A stretch of 16,071 bases of DNA from a virus (taxonomy: Duplodnaviria; Heunggongvirae; Uroviricota; Caudoviricetes): the IMG/VR virus record IMGVR_UViG_2711768058_000013, positions 1 to 16,071 of that record; one strand, 5' to 3'. The translations under genes and the position numbers were made by a program. Below the pieces are notes generated by a model. That model was not told the origin of the DNA and searched no databases. It worked only from the letters and a program-made list of their open reading frames with translations. Positions 1,549-16,071 of this stretch are shown here, piece by piece (position 1 is the first letter of the stretch; each line of letters starts with the position of its first letter).

Positions 1549-1663
1549 TTAAGTTGTGTGGCGAAGTAACCACTCTTAACACGATACAATAGTTTTTGCG
1601 TACGCGTTAGTGGTTATGTAAACTTTCTCCATATAAAAACAGCAAAGAAGCGGATATTTTGAA

Positions 1664-2233
1664 ATGGCTACACTGGACGCATTCAGTAGAGTAATAACTC
1701 ATCATACTATTACGATCGATACACAATACCGTACACAGAAAATTGATGATAGCATCAGATCGAACTGTGTTTGCCCGGTACCAACAATGCGTGAACTTGC
1801 TTCTAAAATAGTACGTTGTAAAGCAATGATGCACAGTTATGAAAAAGGAGACTTAGTTTTAACTTTGCAAGATGTAATCTTCTTATCAAACAGAGCCGAT
1901 AAAAAACCCAGCCATCTTGGTCTTTTAATTAATGCTGTAGATAAAAATGGAAGCACTACTGTGTTAAAAAACATTAATACAGATGTTCGTACCGAAATAT
2001 CACCAAAACATGAGGAAGGTGAAGGTTACGAAGTTTCTTCTCATATGATTATTTCTCTAGACGGAAATATGCGAACCTATGACATGAGTTTTATGCCAAT
2101 ACCAGGAGTTTCCACAGCAAAAATAAATGGTTTCCTGAATAAAGTTCTCTTTAACGTAGCCAAAGATAATGAAGATATCTTTTCATGTAACACTTTAACA
2201 AATGAAGTATCAAGTTTAACAAAGAAAAAATAA
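1664..2233 (+). CDS. Hypothetical protein, AT-rich cargo (cassette 1, ORF A)
   Basis: 189-aa ORF, low GC compared with flanking phage genes, ATG at 1664, on the strand opposite to the flanking phage operon. No recognisable domain. Ends in a Lys-rich tail encoded by an A6 tract. Confidence 0.5.
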   Translation: MATLDAFSRVITHHTITIDTQYRTQKIDDSIRSNCVCPVPTMRELASKIVRCKAMMHSYEKGDLVLTLQDVIFLSNRADKKPSHLGLLINAVDKNGSTTVLKNINTDVRTEISPKHEEGEGYEVSSHMIISLDGNMRTYDMSFMPIPGVSTAKINGFLNKVLFNVAKDNEDIFSCNTLTNEVSSLTKKK

Positions 2234-2283
2234 AAGTATTATACAAGCCAGTCTTTGATATATCTGGAAAGTTAGATGAAGAT

Positions 2284-2691
2284 TTGTTCAATAAAATAAA
2301 TAAAGAAGGACTTTCTGATGTCGTTTTGGTAAAGAATGAATACAGAACTATTAATGCGCCAGATGTTAACGCGGCTATTATTCCTAAAGAAAGTACTTTA
2401 CGCTTAGTACCAAACCATGGCCCCAACAATGTCCTTGGATGGATAAAATCTGTCTCAAACTTCTTTAAAGAAGATAAAAATGGAGGTTATGACTTAATAA
2501 AAATAAAATTCAAAGAGCCAGAGACAGGATTCACAAGACAAGTTGACCTTCAAACTTCAAATGTAAGGCTCGATGGGCTGGAAAAAACATTTATCAAAAA
2601 GAGTGTAATAAATGGTTTTTCTTCGCGCTTAAAGGATTCTTATGATAGTATTAACATGGAGTTTGTGAATAAGATTATCGAGGTCATGTGA
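2284..2691 (+). CDS. Hypothetical protein (cassette 1, ORF B), possibly the frameshifted C-terminal part of ORF A
   Basis: 135-aa ORF with no ATG start (first start codon is TTG at 2284 with a weak RBS). Its frame is open back to 2206, overlapping the last 28 nt of ORF A. The stop at 2689-2691 is followed by GAGG and the ATG of ORF C. Confidence 0.45.
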   Translation: MFNKINKEGLSDVVLVKNEYRTINAPDVNAAIIPKESTLRLVPNHGPNNVLGWIKSVSNFFKEDKNGGYDLIKIKFKEPETGFTRQVDLQTSNVRLDGLEKTFIKKSVINGFSSRLKDSYDSINMEFVNKIIEVM

Positions 2692-2698
2692 GGCTAAT

Positions 2699-3274
2699 AT
2701 GATTAGTATATTTTCACATTTATTTAGACCGTTTGGTTACCTTTTTATTAAGGGAATTAGTGGTAAGTGCGCATACGATTTTTATGCACCTGCAGGGCTT
2801 GCTGTGATTTCTTTTTTTTACTTTTATTTATTTAAAATACCCACATCAGACCTACTAAAAGATGGCGGCTTTATTAAGTCTATATCTGGATTTGTATCAA
2901 ATCTGCCAGGTTTTTATATAGCAGCTCTTGCAGCAATAGCCACTTTCAACAGAGAACAAATTGACTACCCTCTGATAGGAACTAATGGCACGCCTTTTAT
3001 TAAAATTACACGAACAAAAGAAAATGGTAGAATTGTTGACACTCAAGAGAAACTTACCAGAAGATTATTTCTGTGCATGTTATTTTCATTTTTAACTGCC
3101 CTCAGCATATGCATAGTGATTTTCAACGCTTTTATCACACCACTAATAAACATACTGAATAATGATATAGCAAACTGGTGCTATATCATTATCTTTTTAT
3201 TCCTTACATGGCAAATGCTTGTTTCAACATTTTTTGGACTATACTATCTTGGTGATAGGATTCACATTAATTAA
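2699..3274 (+). CDS. Integral membrane protein, about four predicted TM helices (cassette 1, ORF C)
   Basis: 191-aa ORF with GAGG RBS 6-7 nt upstream of ATG 2699. Four long hydrophobic stretches (AGLAVISFFYFYLF; FYIAALAAIATF; LFLCMLFSFLTALSICIVIF; WCYIIIFLFLTWQMLVSTFFGLYYL). Its 3' end overlaps the convergent Q gene by 8 bp. Confidence 0.6.
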   Translation: MISIFSHLFRPFGYLFIKGISGKCAYDFYAPAGLAVISFFYFYLFKIPTSDLLKDGGFIKSISGFVSNLPGFYIAALAAIATFNREQIDYPLIGTNGTPFIKITRTKENGRIVDTQEKLTRRLFLCMLFSFLTALSICIVIFNAFITPLINILNNDIANWCYIIIFLFLTWQMLVSTFFGLYYLGDRIHIN

Positions 3275-3644
3275 CTACCATAATGGGGTTTATAGTTATT
3301 ATTACACCGCTGATAAACCCCATGGCAGTCTGCAATTCCTTCCTAATTGTGCCATCTGAACATCTTCTCTTCTTGGCAATAGTGCGTAATGAGATACCAA
3401 TAACAAAGTGAGCTATGATCAGCTCATATTCCTCTGGTTTATACTTTCGCAACCGAGCCACACAACCGTCTATCATGATGCCTTCATCATCATCACACTG
3501 GAGACGTGACTTTTTACCGTGTGGTAAAAGTCCCTTGAAACCAGCCGCTATCGGCTGCCAGTCCACACCACTATTTTCTGCTGCAGCCCATGCTCCCCAG
3601 CGGTCCAATACTTCATACATATCACGCATCAGCTTTCTCCACAA
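3267..3644 (-). CDS. Late-gene antitermination protein Q (QuuD-like short Q family)
   Basis: 125-aa ORF. The N-terminal WGAWAA motif, the Cys-containing middle and the C-terminal HTH-like segment resemble, as I recall it, the short Q antiterminators of E. coli prophages (DLP12 QuuD type). Last gene of the coupled minus-strand operon. Confidence 0.75.
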   Translation of the reverse strand: MWRKLMRDMYEVLDRWGAWAAAENSGVDWQPIAAGFKGLLPHGKKSRLQCDDDEGIMIDGCVARLRKYKPEEYELIIAHFVIGISLRTIAKKRRCSDGTIRKELQTAMGFISGVIITINPIMVVN

Positions 3645-5505: not shown

Positions 5506-5895
5506 TCAGGCGGCTGCACCCGCCGTTTTCTCGTACTTACTGATAGTGATCTCGACCTTCCCTTCCGGGATAACCGGTCCCCACTCCACCAGCATTCTTT
5601 TCACCTGACTGTCGTCTTCCCACACCCCCGCGTGGGTCAGGGCGTCAAACAGCGCCTTGTTATAGTTGTCCAGATCGCGGATCCGGTTATCCGGAGGAAA
5701 CAACACGATCTCCACTGAAGCAGGTGCCGACGTTGGTTTTGGCAGACGACGTAACTGCTCAACTATTGCTGCACACGCCGCGCTCTGGAATTTTCGCCCC
5801 GCCGCGCTTATCAGGCTCTTACCAGCAAACGCCCCTTTGTTGGGGTGTCGCCAGTACGTGTTCACGCTGGGCGGAAAAGGCAGGATCAGCTTCAT
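5506..5895 (-). CDS. rusA: Holliday junction resolvase RusA
   Basis: 129-aa ORF with the RusA-type motif RIRDLDNYNKALFDALTHAGVWEDDSQV (catalytic Asp cluster). Start ATG overlaps the stop of the upstream gene (ATGA). Confidence 0.8.
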   Translation of the reverse strand: MKLILPFPPSVNTYWRHPNKGAFAGKSLISAAGRKFQSAACAAIVEQLRRLPKPTSAPASVEIVLFPPDNRIRDLDNYNKALFDALTHAGVWEDDSQVKRMLVEWGPVIPEGKVEITISKYEKTAGAAA

Positions 5896-6218
5896 ACTTT
5901 CAGGCCCCTCTCATGTAACCAGTGGACTGCACGCAGTCTGGCGTTTTCCTCACCGGCAAGCAGTGCGCGGATAATCCCGGCTGCCTCACTGTCGTCATCC
6001 TTCACTGTGGTATGAAGCGTGATACCCCGGGCCACGCCACGCTTTATCGTGATGACGCCTTTTTTCTCCAGTGCGCGAAGATGCTCCACCGCTGCATTCA
6101 CCGAACGGTATCCCAGCATGGTTGCCACCTCCTGATTGGTTGGCGGGAAACCACGTTCTTTCTGATAAGAAATCAGCATATCCAGCACCTGCTGCTGGCA
6201 TTGAGTTAACGTCGTCAT
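5892..6218 (-). CDS. LexA-type DNA-binding domain protein, no S24 peptidase domain
   Basis: 108 aa from ATG 6216-6218, which overlaps the TAA of the upstream gene (TAATG). LTQCQQQVLDMLISYQKERGFPPTNQEVATMLGYRSVNAAVEHLRALEKKGVITI matches the LexA N-terminal winged-helix pattern. The track ORF extends to 6251 without an ATG. Confidence 0.6.
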   Translation of the reverse strand: MTTLTQCQQQVLDMLISYQKERGFPPTNQEVATMLGYRSVNAAVEHLRALEKKGVITIKRGVARGITLHTTVKDDDSEAAGIIRALLAGEENARLRAVHWLHERGLKV

Positions 6219-6712
6219 TAAGCCCCCACGTAATTCCCTGACAGATACCACTCTTCACCCGATGCAGCACGCTTGCTGCTTTTCCGTAAGCACTGCTCAC
6301 GACGAGCCAGAAAATTGTTTCGTTCTGGCTGGGAGTGGCTTTCTCGGAATGCCGCCATCCACACCGTTGCAGCACGACGGTATAAGCCCCTGGACTCCAG
6401 TTCTTCAGCCTGGCGGGTCAGGCACAAAATCACCCGTGGATCGTTAGTGCCGACATAGAAATTGCGCACAGATCTGGTTTCACGAACTGGTTGTGGCTCC
6501 GGCCCCTGCGCTCTCTCAGTCAGGCGCGGGAAATGTCTGCGTGTATCTCCTTCACAACGGTGAGCCACACTCCCACTCTGACGTAACTTGCTTGCTGACT
6601 GCAGAACGCGCTGCCGTGAGTAATCTGCAAAAGCATCCGCAATGTCTCCGGAAGTACAGCCCGGATGGGCTTCAATGAATTTCTGAACTTCATTCAAAAG
6701 ACTCATGCTCAC
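6218..6712 (-). CDS. yfdN: PerC-family transcriptional regulator (yfdN-like)
   Basis: 164-aa ORF. AEELESRGLYRRAATVWMAAF...RREQCLRK resembles the PerC/Pch signature (AExLExxGLWRRAAxRW). 164 aa equals the length I recall for K-12 YfdN. Start overlaps the stop of the O-like gene. Confidence 0.5.
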   Translation of the reverse strand: MSMSLLNEVQKFIEAHPGCTSGDIADAFADYSRQRVLQSASKLRQSGSVAHRCEGDTRRHFPRLTERAQGPEPQPVRETRSVRNFYVGTNDPRVILCLTRQAEELESRGLYRRAATVWMAAFRESHSQPERNNFLARREQCLRKSSKRAASGEEWYLSGNYVGA

Positions 6713-11970: not shown

Positions 11971-12507
11971 ATGTCATTTATTAAAACTTTTTCCGGGAAG
12001 CATTTTTATTATGACAAGATAAATAAAGACGACATCGTGATTAACGATATCGCGGTTTCCCTTTCAAATATCTGTCGCTTTGCAGGGCATCTTTCACACT
12101 TCTACAGCGTCGCCCAACATGCGGTGCTTTGCAGCCAGCTGGTGCCGCAGGAATTTGCTTTTGAAGCGTTAATGCATGATGCAACAGAAGCATATTGCCA
12201 GGACATCCCTGCACCACTGAAACGACTTCTTCCTGACTATAAACGGATGGAAGAAAAAATAGACGCCGTAATCCGTGAGAAATACGGGTTACCTCCTGTT
12301 ATGAGCACGCCAGTGAAATATGCCGATCTCATTATGCTGGCAACCGAACGTCGCGATCTCGGGCTTGATGATGGCTCTTTCTGGCCTGTACTGGAAGGCA
12401 TCCCGCCAACAGAGATGTTCAAAGTTATTCCACTGTCGCCAGGCCATGCCTACGGGATGTTTATGGAACGCTTTAACGGGTTATCGGAGTTACGCAAATA
12501 CGCATGA
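11971..12507 (+). CDS. yfdR: HD-domain phosphohydrolase (YfdR-like 5'-deoxynucleotidase family)
   Basis: ATG 11971 with GGAGA RBS gives 178 aa. HD motif (SVAQHAV...ALMHDATEAY). The length I recall for K-12 YfdR is also 178 aa. The track ORF starts at GTG 11944. Confidence 0.7.
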   Translation: MSFIKTFSGKHFYYDKINKDDIVINDIAVSLSNICRFAGHLSHFYSVAQHAVLCSQLVPQEFAFEALMHDATEAYCQDIPAPLKRLLPDYKRMEEKIDAVIREKYGLPPVMSTPVKYADLIMLATERRDLGLDDGSFWPVLEGIPPTEMFKVIPLSPGHAYGMFMERFNGLSELRKYA

Positions 12508-12541
12508 GTCTTTCAACTGCACAACCACTGGAGGGATAGCA

Positions 12542-12736
12542 ATGAACAACTTAATGACAACTAAACAGGTCGCCGACTTCTGTGGCGTTTCAGTATCAAC
12601 AGTACTTCGTTGGAACAGCGTAAACAGGAGGACTGGCCAGAAATACAGACCAGATTTTCCAGATCCTGATATAAAATCCTGCCCAAATAAATGGGCATCA
12701 CACAAGATTTATAGGTTTGCGGGTGTTATTGAGTAA
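12542..12736 (+). CDS. Excisionase / AlpA-family HTH protein (Xis-like)
   Basis: 64 aa from ATG 12542 with GGAGGG RBS 6 nt upstream. TTKQVADFCGVSVSTVLRW is the typical AlpA/Xis (MerR-like) HTH signature. Confidence 0.7.
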   Translation: MNNLMTTKQVADFCGVSVSTVLRWNSVNRRTGQKYRPDFPDPDIKSCPNKWASHKIYRFAGVIE

Positions 12737-12750
12737 GGTAGGTAGCACAG

Positions 12751-12900
12751 ATGTTAACTGACGCTTCTATAACACAAAGCAAACCTAATCTGACTGCACG
12801 CCCTACGCCAGAAACAGATCAAAGTTTAAAATATGCACCGTCCGGAGTGACGATTTTTGTAATATACAGTAGCCTCTATGGGTCATGTGACAGTGTATAG
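12751..12900 (+). pseudogene. Possible remnant of an integrase 5' end (49-aa ORF)
   Basis: Manual translation MLTDASITQSKPNLTARPTPE...: the first 12 residues fit the conserved N-terminus of P4-type integrases (L-T-D-x-x-I-x-x-x-K-P), after which similarity is lost. Lies 15 bp downstream of the excisionase. Confidence 0.3.
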
Positions 12901-12911
12901 GAAAAACAGAA

Positions 12912-13745
12912 GTGATCGATGACCCGTTACCAACGAATTGGAAAGATCTCCAGAACGGAGTCCAACGCATCTTCCGCAATGTTGGCTTATATGCAGAAGT
13001 CGAAGCCAATGTAGAGACTCCACGTGGTTCGGTGAATGTGGATGTTCTCGCAATAGATCCCAAGAGCGTAGATAAAATCAGATACATAGTAGAATGTAAA
13101 AACTGGAGTAACTCTGTGCCTCAGAGCGTAGTCCATTCGTTCACTACGGTGATGCATGAAACTGGGGCTAACATTGGTTTTATTATTTCAAAACATGGGC
13201 TTCAGCAAGGAGCAAAGCAGTATACACAAAACACAAATATCACTGGTATGACATATCTAGAATTTCAAAAGAGATATTTTGAGGCTTGGTGGAAAAGATA
13301 TTTTTGCCCACTTATAGGTGATGCTGCTGACAAGGTTCTTTTATACACTGAAGAATTCAACCATCAGCGAGACCGAGCTTATAGGAATCTTACCCCACAT
13401 AATAAAAAGATGTTTGATGATTTAAGGAGACAGGAAGGTGGCTCAATAATGATTTTATCGATGTTCAACTACATGTCGATATCGAGAGGACTAAAAACAG
13501 GAACATTTTTAAACGTTCCAAAAAGCCTAGATGACTTTAAAGCTATAGTGCTCTCTCAAATAACTCCTCATATCCAATGGAATTGCGACACATTCCGTGA
13601 ACTGTTGAATACGATTTTAAAATACTTAGCAGATATTAAATCAGAATTTGAAATGATATTCGGGGGAGATATTTTTGAACAAACAGATAATATCAGCGGA
13701 GTAACTCTTGATGGTCCTCCTTTGGGAGGGGATATTTATCTATAA
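12912..13745 (+). CDS. Mrr-like PD-(D/E)xK restriction-endonuclease-domain protein with unknown C-terminal domain (cassette 2, gene 1)
   Basis: 277-aa ORF with GTG start. N-terminal NVDVLAID...YIVECKNW...VVHSFTTVMHETGANIGFIISKHGLQQGAKQY matches the Mrr catalytic-domain pattern (D...D...(E/Q)xK...F...G.FI...A). The C-terminal 170 aa are AT-rich and unrecognised. Confidence 0.65.
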   Translation: MIDDPLPTNWKDLQNGVQRIFRNVGLYAEVEANVETPRGSVNVDVLAIDPKSVDKIRYIVECKNWSNSVPQSVVHSFTTVMHETGANIGFIISKHGLQQGAKQYTQNTNITGMTYLEFQKRYFEAWWKRYFCPLIGDAADKVLLYTEEFNHQRDRAYRNLTPHNKKMFDDLRRQEGGSIMILSMFNYMSISRGLKTGTFLNVPKSLDDFKAIVLSQITPHIQWNCDTFRELLNTILKYLADIKSEFEMIFGGDIFEQTDNISGVTLDGPPLGGDIYL

Positions 13746-13835
13746 TTATTAAACTACGCTTAACATTGTCGAATGTTCGATTCATCACTCGAAGCAGAAA
13801 TAAATCAACCTTTTATTTCTAATTAGGAATTTTTA

Positions 13836-14777
13836 ATGGCTACATTTTTCATCAATAACAAAAAAATTTCGATTAGCTCTCTGAAATATAATAGTAAAGA
13901 AATTCAATTAGAAGCAATGCGTAGTTGGTTTCTTGAAAATTATGAAGATCCTGCAAACAGTTGCCCTTATGAGTCACGAGAAGGGGGGTATATTTATATT
14001 TATGGAGGACCATATGATGCAAGTGAAGTGCTTCAAGAAAAATTTGGCGGCTATGTAAAAGATGATTATATTCAAGAGATTGTCGATGATTTACAAGAAA
14101 TTTGTTATGAATGGTCCGGTAACTCCAGTAACGTAGAGGGATGGTATGATGAAGATTTATATAATGTTGTTACAACATCAAAAGAACCTTATACTAACTT
14201 CTACGAAAACATTGCTAAAATACGTTCACTTTCCACACTTAATATTAGTGAAAAAGATAAATCTCATTTTCTTGGCATTTTATACACAAATATTATCACT
14301 GCCCTAGAAACGTTATATGTTGAGCTATTTATCAATTCTATAGAAAAAGATAATTCTTTTTTCATAAATTATATACAAACAGGAACCGGAAACTTTAAAG
14401 CAAGTAAGTCATTGATTTTAAATGCATTCAAGCATGAGTCAATAGTAGAATTAAGAGAACGGTTAGTAAAAGAAATTAAAGAGCACTTAATAAATTCTAG
14501 TTGGCATAGCACTGAACAAGTTATTAAGCGTTATAAATCAACATTTGGTATTAAGGTACAAAGTGACTGGCCTATATCAGAGATTGAACATGCAACTATA
14601 ATTCGAAATCATTTAATCCATCGGGGGGGCAAGGACAAAAATGGAGATCCAGTAACAATTACAGAAGATAATCTAAATGAGTTACTTGAACTATCAGTAT
14701 TACTATGTGAGAAATTGCATACCAGTTTGAACAAAGTAGTAGATGGAAAAAATGGTGGCAGCGAAAGCGAATTTTGA
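13836..14777 (+). CDS. Hypothetical protein with C-terminal HEPN-like R-N-x-x-x-H motif (cassette 2, gene 2)
   Basis: 313-aa ORF, very AT-rich, AGGAA RBS 8 nt upstream of ATG. C-terminal ATIIRNHLIHRGG contains R-N-H-L-I-H, which fits the HEPN RNase signature. No other recognisable domain. Confidence 0.6.
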   Translation: MATFFINNKKISISSLKYNSKEIQLEAMRSWFLENYEDPANSCPYESREGGYIYIYGGPYDASEVLQEKFGGYVKDDYIQEIVDDLQEICYEWSGNSSNVEGWYDEDLYNVVTTSKEPYTNFYENIAKIRSLSTLNISEKDKSHFLGILYTNIITALETLYVELFINSIEKDNSFFINYIQTGTGNFKASKSLILNAFKHESIVELRERLVKEIKEHLINSSWHSTEQVIKRYKSTFGIKVQSDWPISEIEHATIIRNHLIHRGGKDKNGDPVTITEDNLNELLELSVLLCEKLHTSLNKVVDGKNGGSESEF

Positions 14778-14847
14778 TATGAAAGCCTTTGGAATGACAG
14801 CCAAGACATTTAACCAGATTCATCTGCTCATTAATCAAAGCAAATTG

Positions 14848-16071
14848 TCAGTTTGAGTCTAAACTGACACAAGTAACGAGTGATTCAACCCTCTCCCACC
14901 ACGCTTGGTAGGCTTTACGCTGTTCTTCTAGATAATTGCTCTTGTCATAAACTTGCCATACCCCTGGCAGTTTATGACCGAGCATAATTTCTGCGATATG
15001 AGGCGCAGTAAGATCAGAAAAATTTGTTCGAGCTGTACGTCTCAAGTCATGAAGAGACCAATGAGGGAATTGATATCCTAAACGCCGCCATGCGTACTGC
15101 ATTAAATTGTAAGGCAGCGACTGCAATGATGTCCGACCAACGGGTTCCCTGCTTCCTTCCTTAGTAAAAAGCATATCGGAACCATTGTTCATAGAGATAG
15201 CGTACTTTATAAGCTCTTCAACCGGTTCAATAATGGGCCGCTTTAGCGGTTCGCCTGTTATCTCCCCAGTCTTATGTCGTTCTGGTGGTACAGTCCATAC
15301 TTTATTAATGAAATCAAAATCGTCCACCCGGGCGGTAATTAGCTCTGAACTACGGCAACCAAAATGCAGCAATAGTTTAATGAAGGCCCGGTATTTAGGA
15401 ACCATTCGAGAACCATCGATCGCAGCATAAAGGATTTTAATTTCATCGTGTGTCAGAAACCGTTTCTTCTGACCTTTACGGATATCCATATCTTTACCCG
15501 TGATGTCCGACAGCGGGCGAGTTTCAATAAGCTTTCTCTTATACGCCCAGACATGGGCCTGCTTTGCGTTAATTAGCAATCGGTCTGCTATTGCTGGAGT
15601 CTTAGTGCTAAGAGGCTCCAGGACTTCTAACCAATCATGCAATGTAGCTGCATCGTGAGGGATATTCCCGATTTTAGAGAACAGGTGCAGCTCAAACGAG
15701 CGGAGTATCTGTTCAGAACCCTTTTTATTTTTTACACAATATGCTTCATACCAGGCAAGGATCACAGACTCTACCGTCATGGCTTCAGTAGCTTTTCGTT
15801 TTTCAGCCTGCTTGACCAATCGTGGATTACGGTTTGACTCGAGTTCACCACGGAGACGGATAACTTCTTCTCTGGCCTCTTTTAATCCAGTTGCCGGGTA
15901 AGTTCCGATATCAAGACGCTCACCTTTCCCTGCCCATTGATAACGATATTGGAACACTACGCGACCTTTCGGGGATACTCTGACAGACAGACCATCACGA
16001 TCGGATTTTACCAAAACCTTATCACGTTCCTTTCCAACGACTGAACGCAACCACGCATCAGACAGCGCCAT
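14848..16071 (-). CDS. int: Tyrosine recombinase / phage integrase, P4-type
   Basis: 407-aa ORF whose ATG is the last three bases of the window. N-terminal arm-binding-type region (LSDAWLRSV...VRVSPKGRVVFQYRYQWAGKGERLDIGTYP), catalytic region with HDLRRTARTNF and C-terminal MLGHKLPGVWQVYDKSNY containing the presumptive catalytic Tyr. Confidence 0.9.
   Translation of the reverse strand: MALSDAWLRSVVGKERDKVLVKSDRDGLSVRVSPKGRVVFQYRYQWAGKGERLDIGTYPATGLKEAREEVIRLRGELESNRNPRLVKQAEKRKATEAMTVESVILAWYEAYCVKNKKGSEQILRSFELHLFSKIGNIPHDAATLHDWLEVLEPLSTKTPAIADRLLINAKQAHVWAYKRKLIETRPLSDITGKDMDIRKGQKKRFLTHDEIKILYAAIDGSRMVPKYRAFIKLLLHFGCRSSELITARVDDFDFINKVWTVPPERHKTGEITGEPLKRPIIEPVEELIKYAISMNNGSDMLFTKEGSREPVGRTSLQSLPYNLMQYAWRRLGYQFPHWSLHDLRRTARTNFSDLTAPHIAEIMLGHKLPGVWQVYDKSNYLEEQRKAYQAWWERVESLVTCVSLDSN

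What the first reader, a model, noticed from the sequence alone, without database searches (positions are those of the whole stretch)
12737..12911. Integrase-start-like remnant next to the excisionase marks a possible recombination scar at the cassette 2 boundary
A 49-codon ORF begins MLTDASITQSKP, resembling the conserved start of P4-type integrases, then diverges. It lies between the excisionase and the AT-rich cargo, while a complete integrase of the same broad type sits convergently at 14848-16071. This suggests cargo insertion or replacement within an xis-int module, or the junction of two tandem elements.
Basis: partly seen in the sequence, partly recalled or inferred. Interest (0 to 1): 0.5.

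Follow-up and report, generated by a model that had tools for sequence, protein, structure and literature searches.

The report
Chance ORF inside a cassette's inverted repeat
The 49-codon "integrase-like" ORF is an accidental reading frame in a decayed ~90-bp inverted repeat; that repeat marks the left end of a transposon-like defence-gene cassette inserted between a prophage's excisionase and integrase genes, so the boundary is real but the integrase remnant is not.

Summary
The ORF exists (12751-12900, MLTDASITQSKP...). It is not an integrase remnant. It has no Pfam hit at E<=10, no BLASTP alignment to the window's own integrase, and no DNA match under any integrase gene in 5,426 E. coli genomes.

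The DNA under it (12739-12825) is a degenerate copy of a dispersed ~88-bp element. GenBank annotates that element as the "left inverted repeat" of P2-like phage Z-region cassettes. In 19 of 27 representative copies this frame reads ATG TGA. The L, I and KP of the motif come from changes specific to the window lineage.

In Pantoea and Trabulsiella, xis and the convergent int overlap stop-to-stop with nothing between them. E. coli relatives carry at least 15 different cargoes at that point, bounded by left and right inverted repeats and by a duplicated AGTAAYG.

Six insertion contexts in phages have 7-bp flanking repeats that differ from site to site. This points to a non-autonomous, cargo-carrying transposon-like cassette. 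No transposase was found.

The window's cassette (12739-14871) carries an Mrr-like nuclease and a HEPN-related protein. There is one integrase and one att pair (in prfC), so this is not a junction of tandem elements.

The parts
12542..12736 (+). excisionase-like gene (xis, 64 aa). It is not annotated by PGAP in the identical E. coli record.
   Evidence: Partial HTH_17/MerR match. 84-100% aa identity to homologues that sit next to the same convergent integrase in E. coli, Pantoea and Trabulsiella. The homologue is annotated 'excisionase' in phage 2H10. No CDS is called here in NZ_CP155555.1.
12732..12738 (.). left copy of the 7-bp target duplication (AGTAAGG); it contains the xis stop codon
   Evidence: Present once (AGTAACG) at the empty Pantoea site and on both sides of the cassette in E. 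coli.
12739..12825 (+). degenerate left terminal inverted repeat of the cassette (P2 Z-region 'left inverted repeat' family)
   Evidence: nhmmer with a profile built from other copies matches 12743-12818 at 37.9 bits, E 1.4e-9; intact copies score 50-90 bits. Consensus copies match GenBank AJ512685/81/76/83, feature 'left inverted repeat'. Homology to relatives ends at about 12819-12825.
12751..12900 (+). 49-codon ORF of the finding: a chance reading frame, not a conserved gene
   Evidence: Open only in the window lineage. 19 of 27 representative copies have a stop at codon 2. No family or integrase similarity. Interrupted by IS2 in strain LR-64-1.
12826..12911 (+). cargo-specific leader upstream of the nuclease gene
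   Evidence: Found only with this cargo, in 7 of 5,426 E. coli genomes. No consensus sigma-70 promoter was detected at the scan's stringency.
12912..13745 (+). cargo gene 1: Mrr_cat restriction-endonuclease-like protein (277 aa)
   Evidence: Pfam Mrr_cat E 1.5e-12. Weak PADLOC PDC-S02 hit. Annotated 'restriction endonuclease'.
13836..14777 (+). cargo gene 2: protein with a HEPN/RES N-terminal domain 1 (313 aa)
   Evidence: Pfam HEPN_RES_NTD1 E 1.5e-6. Weak PADLOC RTasHEPN hit.
14838..14871 (+). remnant of the right terminal inverted repeat; it encodes the last 7 codons and the stop codon of int on the other strand
   Evidence: nhmmer with the right-repeat profile matches 14838-14864 to positions 52-78 at 10.6 bits. 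Relatives have the full ~85-bp right repeat at this position. Terminus position.
14872..14878 (.). right copy of the 7-bp target duplication (AGTAACG), lying inside int codons
14848..16071 (-). complete tyrosine integrase (407 aa), convergent with xis; its C-terminal tail comes from the cassette end
   Evidence: Pfam Arm-DNA-bind_3, Phage_int_M and Phage_integrase. Pantoea Int ends ...ESLVTG*, whereas this one ends ...ESLVTCVSLDSN*.

Best explanation
Shown: the 49-codon ORF is an accidental open frame inside a decayed copy of a ~88-bp repeat element. That element is the left terminal inverted repeat of a 2.1-kb accessory cassette (12739-14871). The cassette lies exactly where the stop codons of the convergent xis and int genes overlap in cassette-free relatives.

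The element normally reads ATG TGA... in this frame. In the window lineage a TGA-to-TTA change, an ATG-to-ATA change and a 1-nt deletion created M-L-T-D...I...K-P and opened the frame.

Inferred: the cassette family entered this and other phage sites by a transposition-type event. The family is bounded by ~85-90-bp imperfect inverted repeats with 5'-TGTAT...TACA-3' termini and two CTGACA(G) motifs per arm. It carries highly variable, mostly defence-type genes and no transposase of its own. Insertion duplicated 7 bp of AT-rich target (here AGTAAYG), and the transposase supplied in trans is unidentified.

Cargo has since been exchanged between phages as whole repeat-bounded units or at the repeats. 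The window's copy, with both repeats eroded, is probably immobile. Its cargo (Mrr-like nuclease plus HEPN-related protein) is a candidate anti-phage module.
For: Not an integrase remnant: searches find no protein or DNA similarity to any integrase. The frame is closed at codon 2 in 19 of 27 copies, and the motif residues are changes specific to the window lineage. IS2 interrupts the ORF in one strain.

Repeat identity: the nhmmer match is E 1.4e-9. Consensus copies hit P2-like phages and GenBank features named 'left inverted repeat', with a 'right inverted repeat' beyond the cargo. The left repeat and the reverse complement of the right repeat share TGTAYT..CTCA..ACTGACA..AATCTGACAGTC.GCT.

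Insertion: empty xis|int sites exist in Pantoea, Trabulsiella and Symbiopectobacterium. AGTAAYG lies on both sides in E. coli and once in Pantoea.

Seven-bp flanking repeats that differ between contexts: ATTAATG, AATTATT, CTTAATC and AGTAACA are perfect; TATGAAA/CATGAAA is 6/7; the P2 G|FI site is 5/7. The flanking genes in these contexts are unrelated to each other.

Sharp boundaries: flanking xis and int are 88-96% identical between relatives, while the left repeat is only 64-70% identical.

Hotspot: xis-int spacers range from 1,076 to 4,226 bp, with 43 distinct post-xis sequences. Cargo includes STAND, SIR2, AIPR, AAA_15/21, HNH, deaminase, TIR, PIN, Shedu and DUF4435 domains, with no recurrent transposase.
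Against: No transposase with matching ends was found, so mobility is inferred from anatomy only.

One context (flank ...gaattgctaa) shows no duplication, and the P2 site only 5 of 7.

The left and right repeats are only about 55-60% alike, which is low for active ends.

Many left-type repeats are solitary (32 of 121; L097, L098, L101, L102, L105).

All E. coli members share one insertion site. Cargo diversity there could therefore come from recombination after a single insertion rather than from repeated transposition.

In the window itself the right repeat is a 27-nt low-scoring remnant (10.6 bits).

Translation of the ORF cannot be excluded: an AGG lies 7 nt upstream of the ATG.
Confidence: 0.75

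Rival explanations
1. One reading: the ORF is the decayed 5' end of a P4-type integrase gene that once followed xis in the same orientation, left behind by cargo insertion or by fusion of two tandem elements.
For: The motif LTDxxIxxxKP is rare by chance. The ORF lies directly after an excisionase gene.
Against: No Pfam hit at E<=10. No tblastn hit to any phage integrase. No blastn hit under an integrase in 5,426 E. coli genomes. No similarity to the resident int. The same DNA is a dispersed repeat also found in P2-like phages, plasmids and chromosomal sites, and there this frame is closed. The ancestral arrangement is convergent xis/int with overlapping stops. There is a single integrase and a single att pair.
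Confidence: 0.03
2. The ORF encodes a genuine small protein, for example a lineage-specific accessory peptide of this cassette.
For: It has an ATG start with an AGG-containing stretch 7 nt upstream. It is intact in six of the seven E. coli genomes that carry this cargo; the seventh has the IS2 insertion.
Against: Those seven genomes are about 99% identical here, so intactness carries no information. IS2 disrupts the ORF in one of them. Homologous copies are not open. There is no homologue or family. PGAP does not call it.
Confidence: 0.04
3. The repeats are not transposon ends. They are recombination handles: conserved sites at which cassettes are swapped by site-specific recombination (as the title of Nilsson et al. 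2004 suggests) or by relaxed homologous recombination between co-resident phages.
For: Many different cargoes occupy one fixed site. Nearly identical left repeats (variants v10 and v12, about 93%) precede different cargoes, and the break falls right after GTT[AG]. No transposase is present. Solitary repeats are common.
Against: The flanking 7-mers differ from site to site and are duplicated at each site, which is a transposition signature and not a shared att core. No recombinase gene travels with the cassettes. The repeats diverge much more than the backbone, so they move with the cargo. This rival is compatible with the best explanation as a later step.
Confidence: 0.2
4. The conserved block is mainly an RNA or DNA structural signal, such as a terminator, insulator or processing site at the end of the early-left operon, kept because it regulates xis or cargo expression.
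For: Each copy can form two hairpins. Copies lie within 7 nt of the stop codon of a co-oriented gene in six contexts.
Against: No T-run follows the hairpins on either strand, and the terminator scan finds nothing there on the + strand. The RNAalifold consensus is very weak (-1.3 kcal/mol) with little covariation; conservation is of sequence, loop included. No Rfam family matches. The window copy has lost both hairpins. This model does not explain the inverted right copy or the duplications.
Confidence: 0.08

Closest known systems
Inverted repeats flanking the Z-region (Z/fun locus) cargo of P2-like coliphages (GenBank AJ512676-AJ512685; Nilsson, Karlsson & Haggard-Ljungquist 2004, pmid 12949155)
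   Same: The repeat family is the same. Consensus copies of the block align at 78-83% to the features annotated 'left inverted repeat', with a diverged inverted copy beyond variable 'lysogenic conversion' ORFs.
   Different: The cassette here sits in a lambdoid prophage between xis and int, not between the P2 tail genes G and FI. The window's copy is eroded on both sides. I could not read the 2004 paper, so whether its authors saw target duplications or other host contexts is unknown.
[quoted passage not shown] 2022, PMC9122126)
   Same: A fixed locus in a temperate phage carries many alternative anti-phage-type systems (STAND, SIR2, AIPR, DUF4435/AAA, HEPN and others). That paper leaves the mechanism of exchange open.
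   Different: Those hotspots lie next to cos, and cos-end recombination was proposed. Here the hotspot is bounded by inverted repeats and a duplicated 7-mer.
Non-autonomous transposable elements with long structured ends (MITE-like elements carrying passenger genes; from my own knowledge, Tn552/IS21/Tn7-type ends with TG...CA termini and repeated internal binding sites)
   Same: Imperfect terminal inverted repeats, TG...CA termini, internal repeated motifs, short site-specific target duplications, an empty site in relatives and no transposase of their own.
   Different: No cognate transposase or autonomous partner was identified. I know of no family defined by a 7-bp duplication with these ends. 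The size (1-6 kb with cargo) is far above that of a MITE.
Integron gene cassettes (attC sites)
   Same: Promoter-proximal variable cassettes are bounded by imperfect palindromes. Homology between neighbouring variants often stops after GTT[AG]C, which resembles the GTTRRRY core.
   Different: The R''/R' pairing is not conserved, there is no intI, and the repeats flank the cargo in inverted orientation with target duplications. I do not file it here.
P4-type (Arm-DNA-bind_3) tyrosine integrases
   Same: Only the six-residue pattern LTDxxIxxxKP.
   Different: There is no profile, protein or DNA similarity, and the frame is not conserved.

Membership tests
P4-type integrase N-terminus (Arm-DNA-bind_3) | Significant match of the peptide to the Arm DNA-binding domain profile | tested here: not met
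   No Pfam family at E<=10. The resident Int matches the same profile at 2e-16.
P4-type integrase N-terminus (Arm-DNA-bind_3) | Nucleotide or protein similarity to the 5' end of some integrase gene | tested here: not met
   blastn (word 11) against 5,426 E. coli genomes gave 61 hits, none under an integrase. tblastn against 50,697 phage records found no integrase. BLASTP and local alignment against the window's int found nothing above shuffled sequence.
P4-type integrase N-terminus (Arm-DNA-bind_3) | Reading frame retained, or recognisably decayed, in homologous copies | tested here: not met
   19 of 27 copies stop at codon 2. The consensus translation M*TDTSMAQSQT* has no integrase character.
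P2 Z-region-type inverted-repeat cassette | Left repeat homologous to the annotated 'left inverted repeat' | tested here: met
   The profile match is 12743-12818, E 1.4e-9. The family consensus hits AJ512685/81/76/83.
P2 Z-region-type inverted-repeat cassette | Inverted right repeat on the far side of the cargo | tested here: inconclusive
   In the window only a 27-nt remnant is left (10.6 bits). Relatives at the same site have full-length right repeats.
P2 Z-region-type inverted-repeat cassette | Variable, low-GC accessory genes between the repeats | tested here: met
   GC is 0.29-0.43 across 12800-14800. There are at least 15 cargo types at this site and 72 protein clusters family-wide.
DDE-type transposable element | Terminal inverted repeats | tested here: met
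   The left repeat and the reverse complement of the right repeat align over about 85 bp with shared TGTAYT termini. In the window both are eroded.
DDE-type transposable element | Target-site duplication that differs between insertion sites | tested here: met
   Seven-bp repeats are perfect at four sites, 6/7 at two sites (including the window, AGTAAGG/AGTAACG), 5/7 at the P2 site and absent at one site.
DDE-type transposable element | Empty site in related genomes | tested here: met
   In Pantoea, Trabulsiella and Symbiopectobacterium the xis and int stops overlap. Pantoea has a single AGTAACG at the junction (Trabulsiella CTTAACG, Symbiopectobacterium AGTAGCG).
DDE-type transposable element | Cognate transposase (in cis or in trans) and demonstrated mobility | tested here: not met
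   No recurrent transposase occurs in 90 cargo protein clusters; only secondary IS1, IS2 and one DDE_Tnp_1 were seen. Mobility cannot be tested with these tools.
Integron cassette / attC | Conserved R''/R' core sites, extrahelical-base hairpin and an associated IntI | tested here: not met
   No consistent pairing of an AAC...GTT core. No intI-type gene lies nearby.
Intrinsic terminator | GC-rich hairpin followed by a T-run | tested here: not met
   The scan of 12400-13100 finds no + strand site in the block. The sequences show an A-run, not a T-run, after the second hairpin.

The most novel reading that the evidence does not exclude
The P2 'Z-region inverted repeats' are the ends of a so far uncharacterised family of non-autonomous, cargo-carrying transposons. 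They have ~90-bp structured inverted-repeat ends, TGTAT...TACA termini and a 7-bp AT-rich target duplication. They shuttle anti-phage and other accessory genes between unrelated temperate phages (P2-like, lambdoid), plasmids and chromosomes of Enterobacterales, and are mobilised in trans by an unidentified transposase. This would give a concrete mechanism for how some phage defence hotspots are loaded and exchanged.
Probability: 0.45. Interest if true: 0.7.

Novelty: new member of a known kind. Interest (0 to 1): 0.4.

Why it matters
The finding as posed is a false lead: a motif-level resemblance produced by three mutations in a repeat. It shows how a rare-looking peptide motif can arise in non-coding DNA.

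What lies underneath is more useful. The xis-int junction of prfC-integrating lambdoid prophages is a defence-gene hotspot. Its boundaries are the same inverted repeats that flank the P2 Z-region cargo, and these units carry target-site duplications at several independent phage sites.

How phage defence hotspots exchange their contents is an acknowledged open question (Rousset et al. 2022). A repeat-bounded, transposon-like cassette is a testable answer for this class of hotspot. It also gives a simple sequence handle, the ~88-bp repeat, for mining new candidate defence systems.

Tried and rejected
- **Rfam:** searches of the region and of intact copies found nothing. The only hit was a fly lncRNA at E 5.2.
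- **Consensus RNA structure:** very weak, with conservation of sequence rather than of pairing.
- **Terminator or promoter in the block:** none on the + strand.
- **attC-like reading** (AAC...GTT cores): pairing is not conserved between copies.
- **Sigma-54 and LexA-box readings** of TGGCAC/CTG...CAG: the spacing and second half-sites do not fit (by inspection).
- **Invertase (gix/hix) sites:** no match by inspection.
- **IS66 origin:** two IS66 copies end in a left-type repeat. However, their left ends show no similarity to the repeat and no IRR is present. I read this as adjacency or truncation, not ancestry.
- **The 101-aa 'transposase' next to a solitary copy at nanQ:** no Pfam or NCBIfam support.
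- **Sharing of this cargo with P2 cassettes or other contexts:** none. The cargo occurs only in 7 E. coli genomes at this site, and there is no match in phage records.
- **Literature:** Nilsson 2004 and Odegrip 2006 are not held. Searches for a description of these repeats as transposon ends found nothing.
- **First guesses of a 5-bp (AGTAA) or 10-bp duplication:** replaced by 7 bp once more contexts were available.

Full report
**Observation.** The window is 100% identical to the right end of a prophage remnant in E. coli LZHX12 (NZ_CP155555.1), next to yjjG. A 49-codon ATG ORF lies at 12751-12900 and reads MLTDASITQSKP.... It sits 14 nt after the stop of a 64-aa HTH gene at 12542-12736. That gene behaves as the excisionase. 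It has a partial HTH_17 match, is 84-100% conserved next to the same integrase in several genera, and its homologue is annotated 'excisionase' in phage 2H10. PGAP does not call it here.

Downstream lie an Mrr_cat nuclease gene (12912-13745), a HEPN_RES_NTD1 gene (13836-14777) and a convergent integrase (14848-16071) with Arm-DNA-bind_3, Phage_int_M and Phage_integrase domains. GC falls to 0.29-0.43 over the cargo.

**Is it integrase-like?** The pattern LTDxxIxxxKP is rare. It did not occur in 300 shuffled windows, and it occurs only once, in this ORF, in 453,140 six-frame codons of real loci. Nothing beyond those six residues supports an integrase origin:
- no Pfam family at E<=10;
- no BLASTP alignment to the window's integrase at E<=100;
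- a local DNA alignment to the first 300 nt of int that scores exactly like shuffled sequence;
- no integrase among tblastn hits in 50,697 phage records at E<=10;
- 61 hits in a word-11 blastn of 12737-12911 against 5,426 complete E. coli genomes, all in the same intergenic position of related prophages and none under an integrase gene.

**What the DNA is.** Related prophages at the same yjjG/prfC locus keep xis and about 80-90 bp after it. They then diverge completely into different cargo before reaching the same convergent integrase. In 80 IMG/VR relatives the xis-int spacer ranges from 1,076 to 4,226 bp, and there are 43 distinct post-xis sequences.

A consensus of the conserved block hit 100 phage records. 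These include P2-like phages of Escherichia, Yersinia and Klebsiella. They also include the GenBank entries for 'P2-ECxx proviral Z-region', where the block is annotated 'left inverted repeat' and a 'right inverted repeat' lies beyond the cargo. These entries belong to Nilsson et al. 2004, which I could not read.

The block occurs in 2,252 of 5,426 E. coli genomes and in 114 plasmid records from ten genera. A profile built from other copies matches window 12743-12818 at E 1.4e-9. The score is only 37.9 bits, against 50-90 bits for intact copies, so the window's copy is one of the most eroded.

**Why the ORF is an accident.** Among 27 representative copies, 19 stop at codon 2 in this frame; 14 of those read ATG TGA and the other five lack the ATG. 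One other copy has a 38-codon frame. Only the window lineage has 49 codons. Relative to the consensus shared by copies in lambdoid prophages, P2 phages, plasmids and chromosomes:
- the window's Leu comes from TGA to TTA;
- its Ile comes from ATG to ATA;
- its Lys-Pro comes from a 1-nt deletion.

The motif is therefore derived, not ancestral. In strain LR-64-1 an IS2 sits at 12825/12826 inside the ORF. The ORF has a possible Shine-Dalgarno sequence (AGG, 7 nt upstream), so translation cannot be excluded, but nothing supports a function.

**The boundary is real.** In Pantoea stewartii, Trabulsiella guamensis and a Symbiopectobacterium, xis and the convergent int overlap stop-to-stop, with no block and no cargo. 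In E. coli the 7-mer AGTAAYG, present once at the Pantoea junction, lies on both sides of the insert. In the window these copies are AGTAAGG at 12732-12738 and AGTAACG at 14872-14878.

The right side of the insert in relatives is an ~85-bp block that is an imperfect inverted copy of the left one. The two share TGTAYT..CTCA..ACTGACA..AATCTGACAGTC.GCT. It contains the last codons and the stop of int, so Int ends ...ESLVTCVSLDSN* here but ...ESLVTG* in Pantoea. In the window only 27 nt of the right block survive (14838-14864, 10.6 bits).

Flanking xis and int are 88-96% identical between relatives. The left block is only 64-70% identical. The blocks therefore belong with the cargo and not with the backbone.

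**Mechanism (inferred).** A pattern scan of IMG/VR gave 89 further left/right pairs. I fixed the termini at 5'-TGTAT and TACA-3' and compared the 7 nt outside each end. They form direct repeats that differ from site to site:

| Context | Left / right 7-mer | Match |
|---|---|---|
| Between a glycosyltransferase and a tail-fibre assembly gene | ATTAATG / ATTAATG | 7/7 |
| Between a UvrD-like helicase and P2 gpA | AATTATT / AATTATT | 7/7 |
| After a P2 gpU-like gene | CTTAATC / CTTAATC | 7/7 |
| xis/int (one variant) | AGTAACA / AGTAACA | 7/7 |
| After a P4-type integrase | TATGAAA / CATGAAA | 6/7 |
| P2 G/FI | AATAAGT / AATCAGG | 5/7 |
| Flank ...gaattgctaa | no repeat | - |

Site-specific duplications, inverted ends and an empty site are the anatomy of a transposable element. 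They are not the anatomy of an att-type recombination.

The cargo is very diverse and mostly defence-like: STAND/NACHT, SIR2, AIPR, AAA_13/15/21, HNH, deaminase, TIR, PIN, Shedu SduA_C, AbiGi, DUF4435, RES, FRG and Mrr_cat domains, plus an ars operon. No recurrent transposase is present. If mobile, the cassettes are therefore non-autonomous, and the transposase is unknown.

Recombination at or near the repeats probably also swaps cargo. Nearly identical left blocks precede different cargoes, with the break right after GTT[AG]. Many solitary left-type blocks exist, typically within 7 nt of a stop codon. These remain unexplained.

**Tandem elements and att.** The prophage has one integrase. Its ends lie in the 5' end of prfC. 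A phage-borne replacement start ([21 protein letters not shown]...) sits at the left. The displaced original start ([23 protein letters not shown]) sits beside int. The two share a ~20-bp core, GGGTGAGAAATAAT[T/G]GCAAA. In LZHX12 the prophage is a ~22-kb remnant without most structural genes. There is no sign of a second element.

**Comparison and novelty.** The repeat family has been in GenBank since the P2 Z-region study, and phage defence hotspots are well known (Rousset et al. 2022). Three things appear not to have been described in the literature I could search:
- this family bounds a hotspot between xis and int of lambdoid prophages;
- it occupies several other phage sites;
- it shows 7-bp target duplications.

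I file it as a new member of a known kind. The transposon reading is an inference at about 45-55% confidence.

**Verdict.** The integrase-remnant interpretation is rejected with high confidence. The 'cargo boundary in an xis-int module' interpretation is upheld.

Noticed in passing
window 12542-12736: The conserved 64-aa excisionase-like gene is not annotated by PGAP in the identical RefSeq record or in its relatives. The same protein is annotated 'excisionase' in phage 2H10.
   Followed up: partly
window 12912-14777: The two-gene cargo (Mrr_cat nuclease-like plus HEPN_RES_NTD1 protein) has only weak PADLOC hits (PDC-S02, RTasHEPN). It occurs in 7 of 5,426 complete E. coli genomes, always at this site, and has no match in phage records. 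It is a candidate uncharacterised defence pair.
   Followed up: partly
window 14848-14871: The last 7 codons and the stop codon of int are encoded by the cassette's right end. The Int C-terminal tail therefore differs between cassettes (..VTCVSLDSN*, ..VTCTGS*) and from cassette-free relatives (..VTG*).
   Followed up: partly
L002 (NZ_AP027588.1), equivalent to window 12825/12826: An IS2 copy is inserted at the inner edge of the left repeat in strain LR-64-1. It splits the 49-codon ORF. In the same strain the HEPN-related gene is also altered.
   Followed up: no
L001 17673-17740 (just beyond the window's right end) and L103 37700-37760: Several TGTACA-containing repeats (for example ATTATGTACAAGCATATGTACA) lie upstream of int and again at the other prophage end. 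They are probably arm-type Int binding sites. The att core lies in prfC codons ~15-21, and the phage supplies a replacement prfC 5' end.
   Followed up: partly
L098 4000-4085 (Klebsiella plasmid) and L104 3981-4057 (Pantoea plasmid): Two IS66-family copies, 82% identical to each other, have no recognisable right inverted repeat. Each ends in a left-type block that overlaps the end of tnpC.
   Followed up: partly
L097 4000-4085 (E. coli 0H23, nanQ-yhcG): A solitary left-type block lies directly after nanQ. It is followed by a 101-aa ORF annotated 'transposase' that has no Pfam or NCBIfam support, and then by a truncated yhcG. K-12 has an intact yhcG and no block there.
   Followed up: partly
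window 1600-3300: A second AT-rich stretch (GC 0.32-0.35) holds two hypothetical genes between a DNA methyltransferase gene and the Q antiterminator gene. No copy of the left or right repeat flanks it (best profile hits E>0.6).
   Followed up: partly
window 5892-6250 (L001 8800-9251): Two adjacent pseudogene fragments (a LexA-family C-terminal part and an HTH N-terminal part) are annotated in the replication/regulation region of the prophage. This fits a decaying prophage.
   Followed up: no
L135 267-1457 and cassette from 1470: Another cassette of the same family sits directly after the stop codon of an unrelated P4-type integrase, with flanking TATGAAA/CATGAAA. Integrase 3' ends may be a recurrent landing place.
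   Followed up: no
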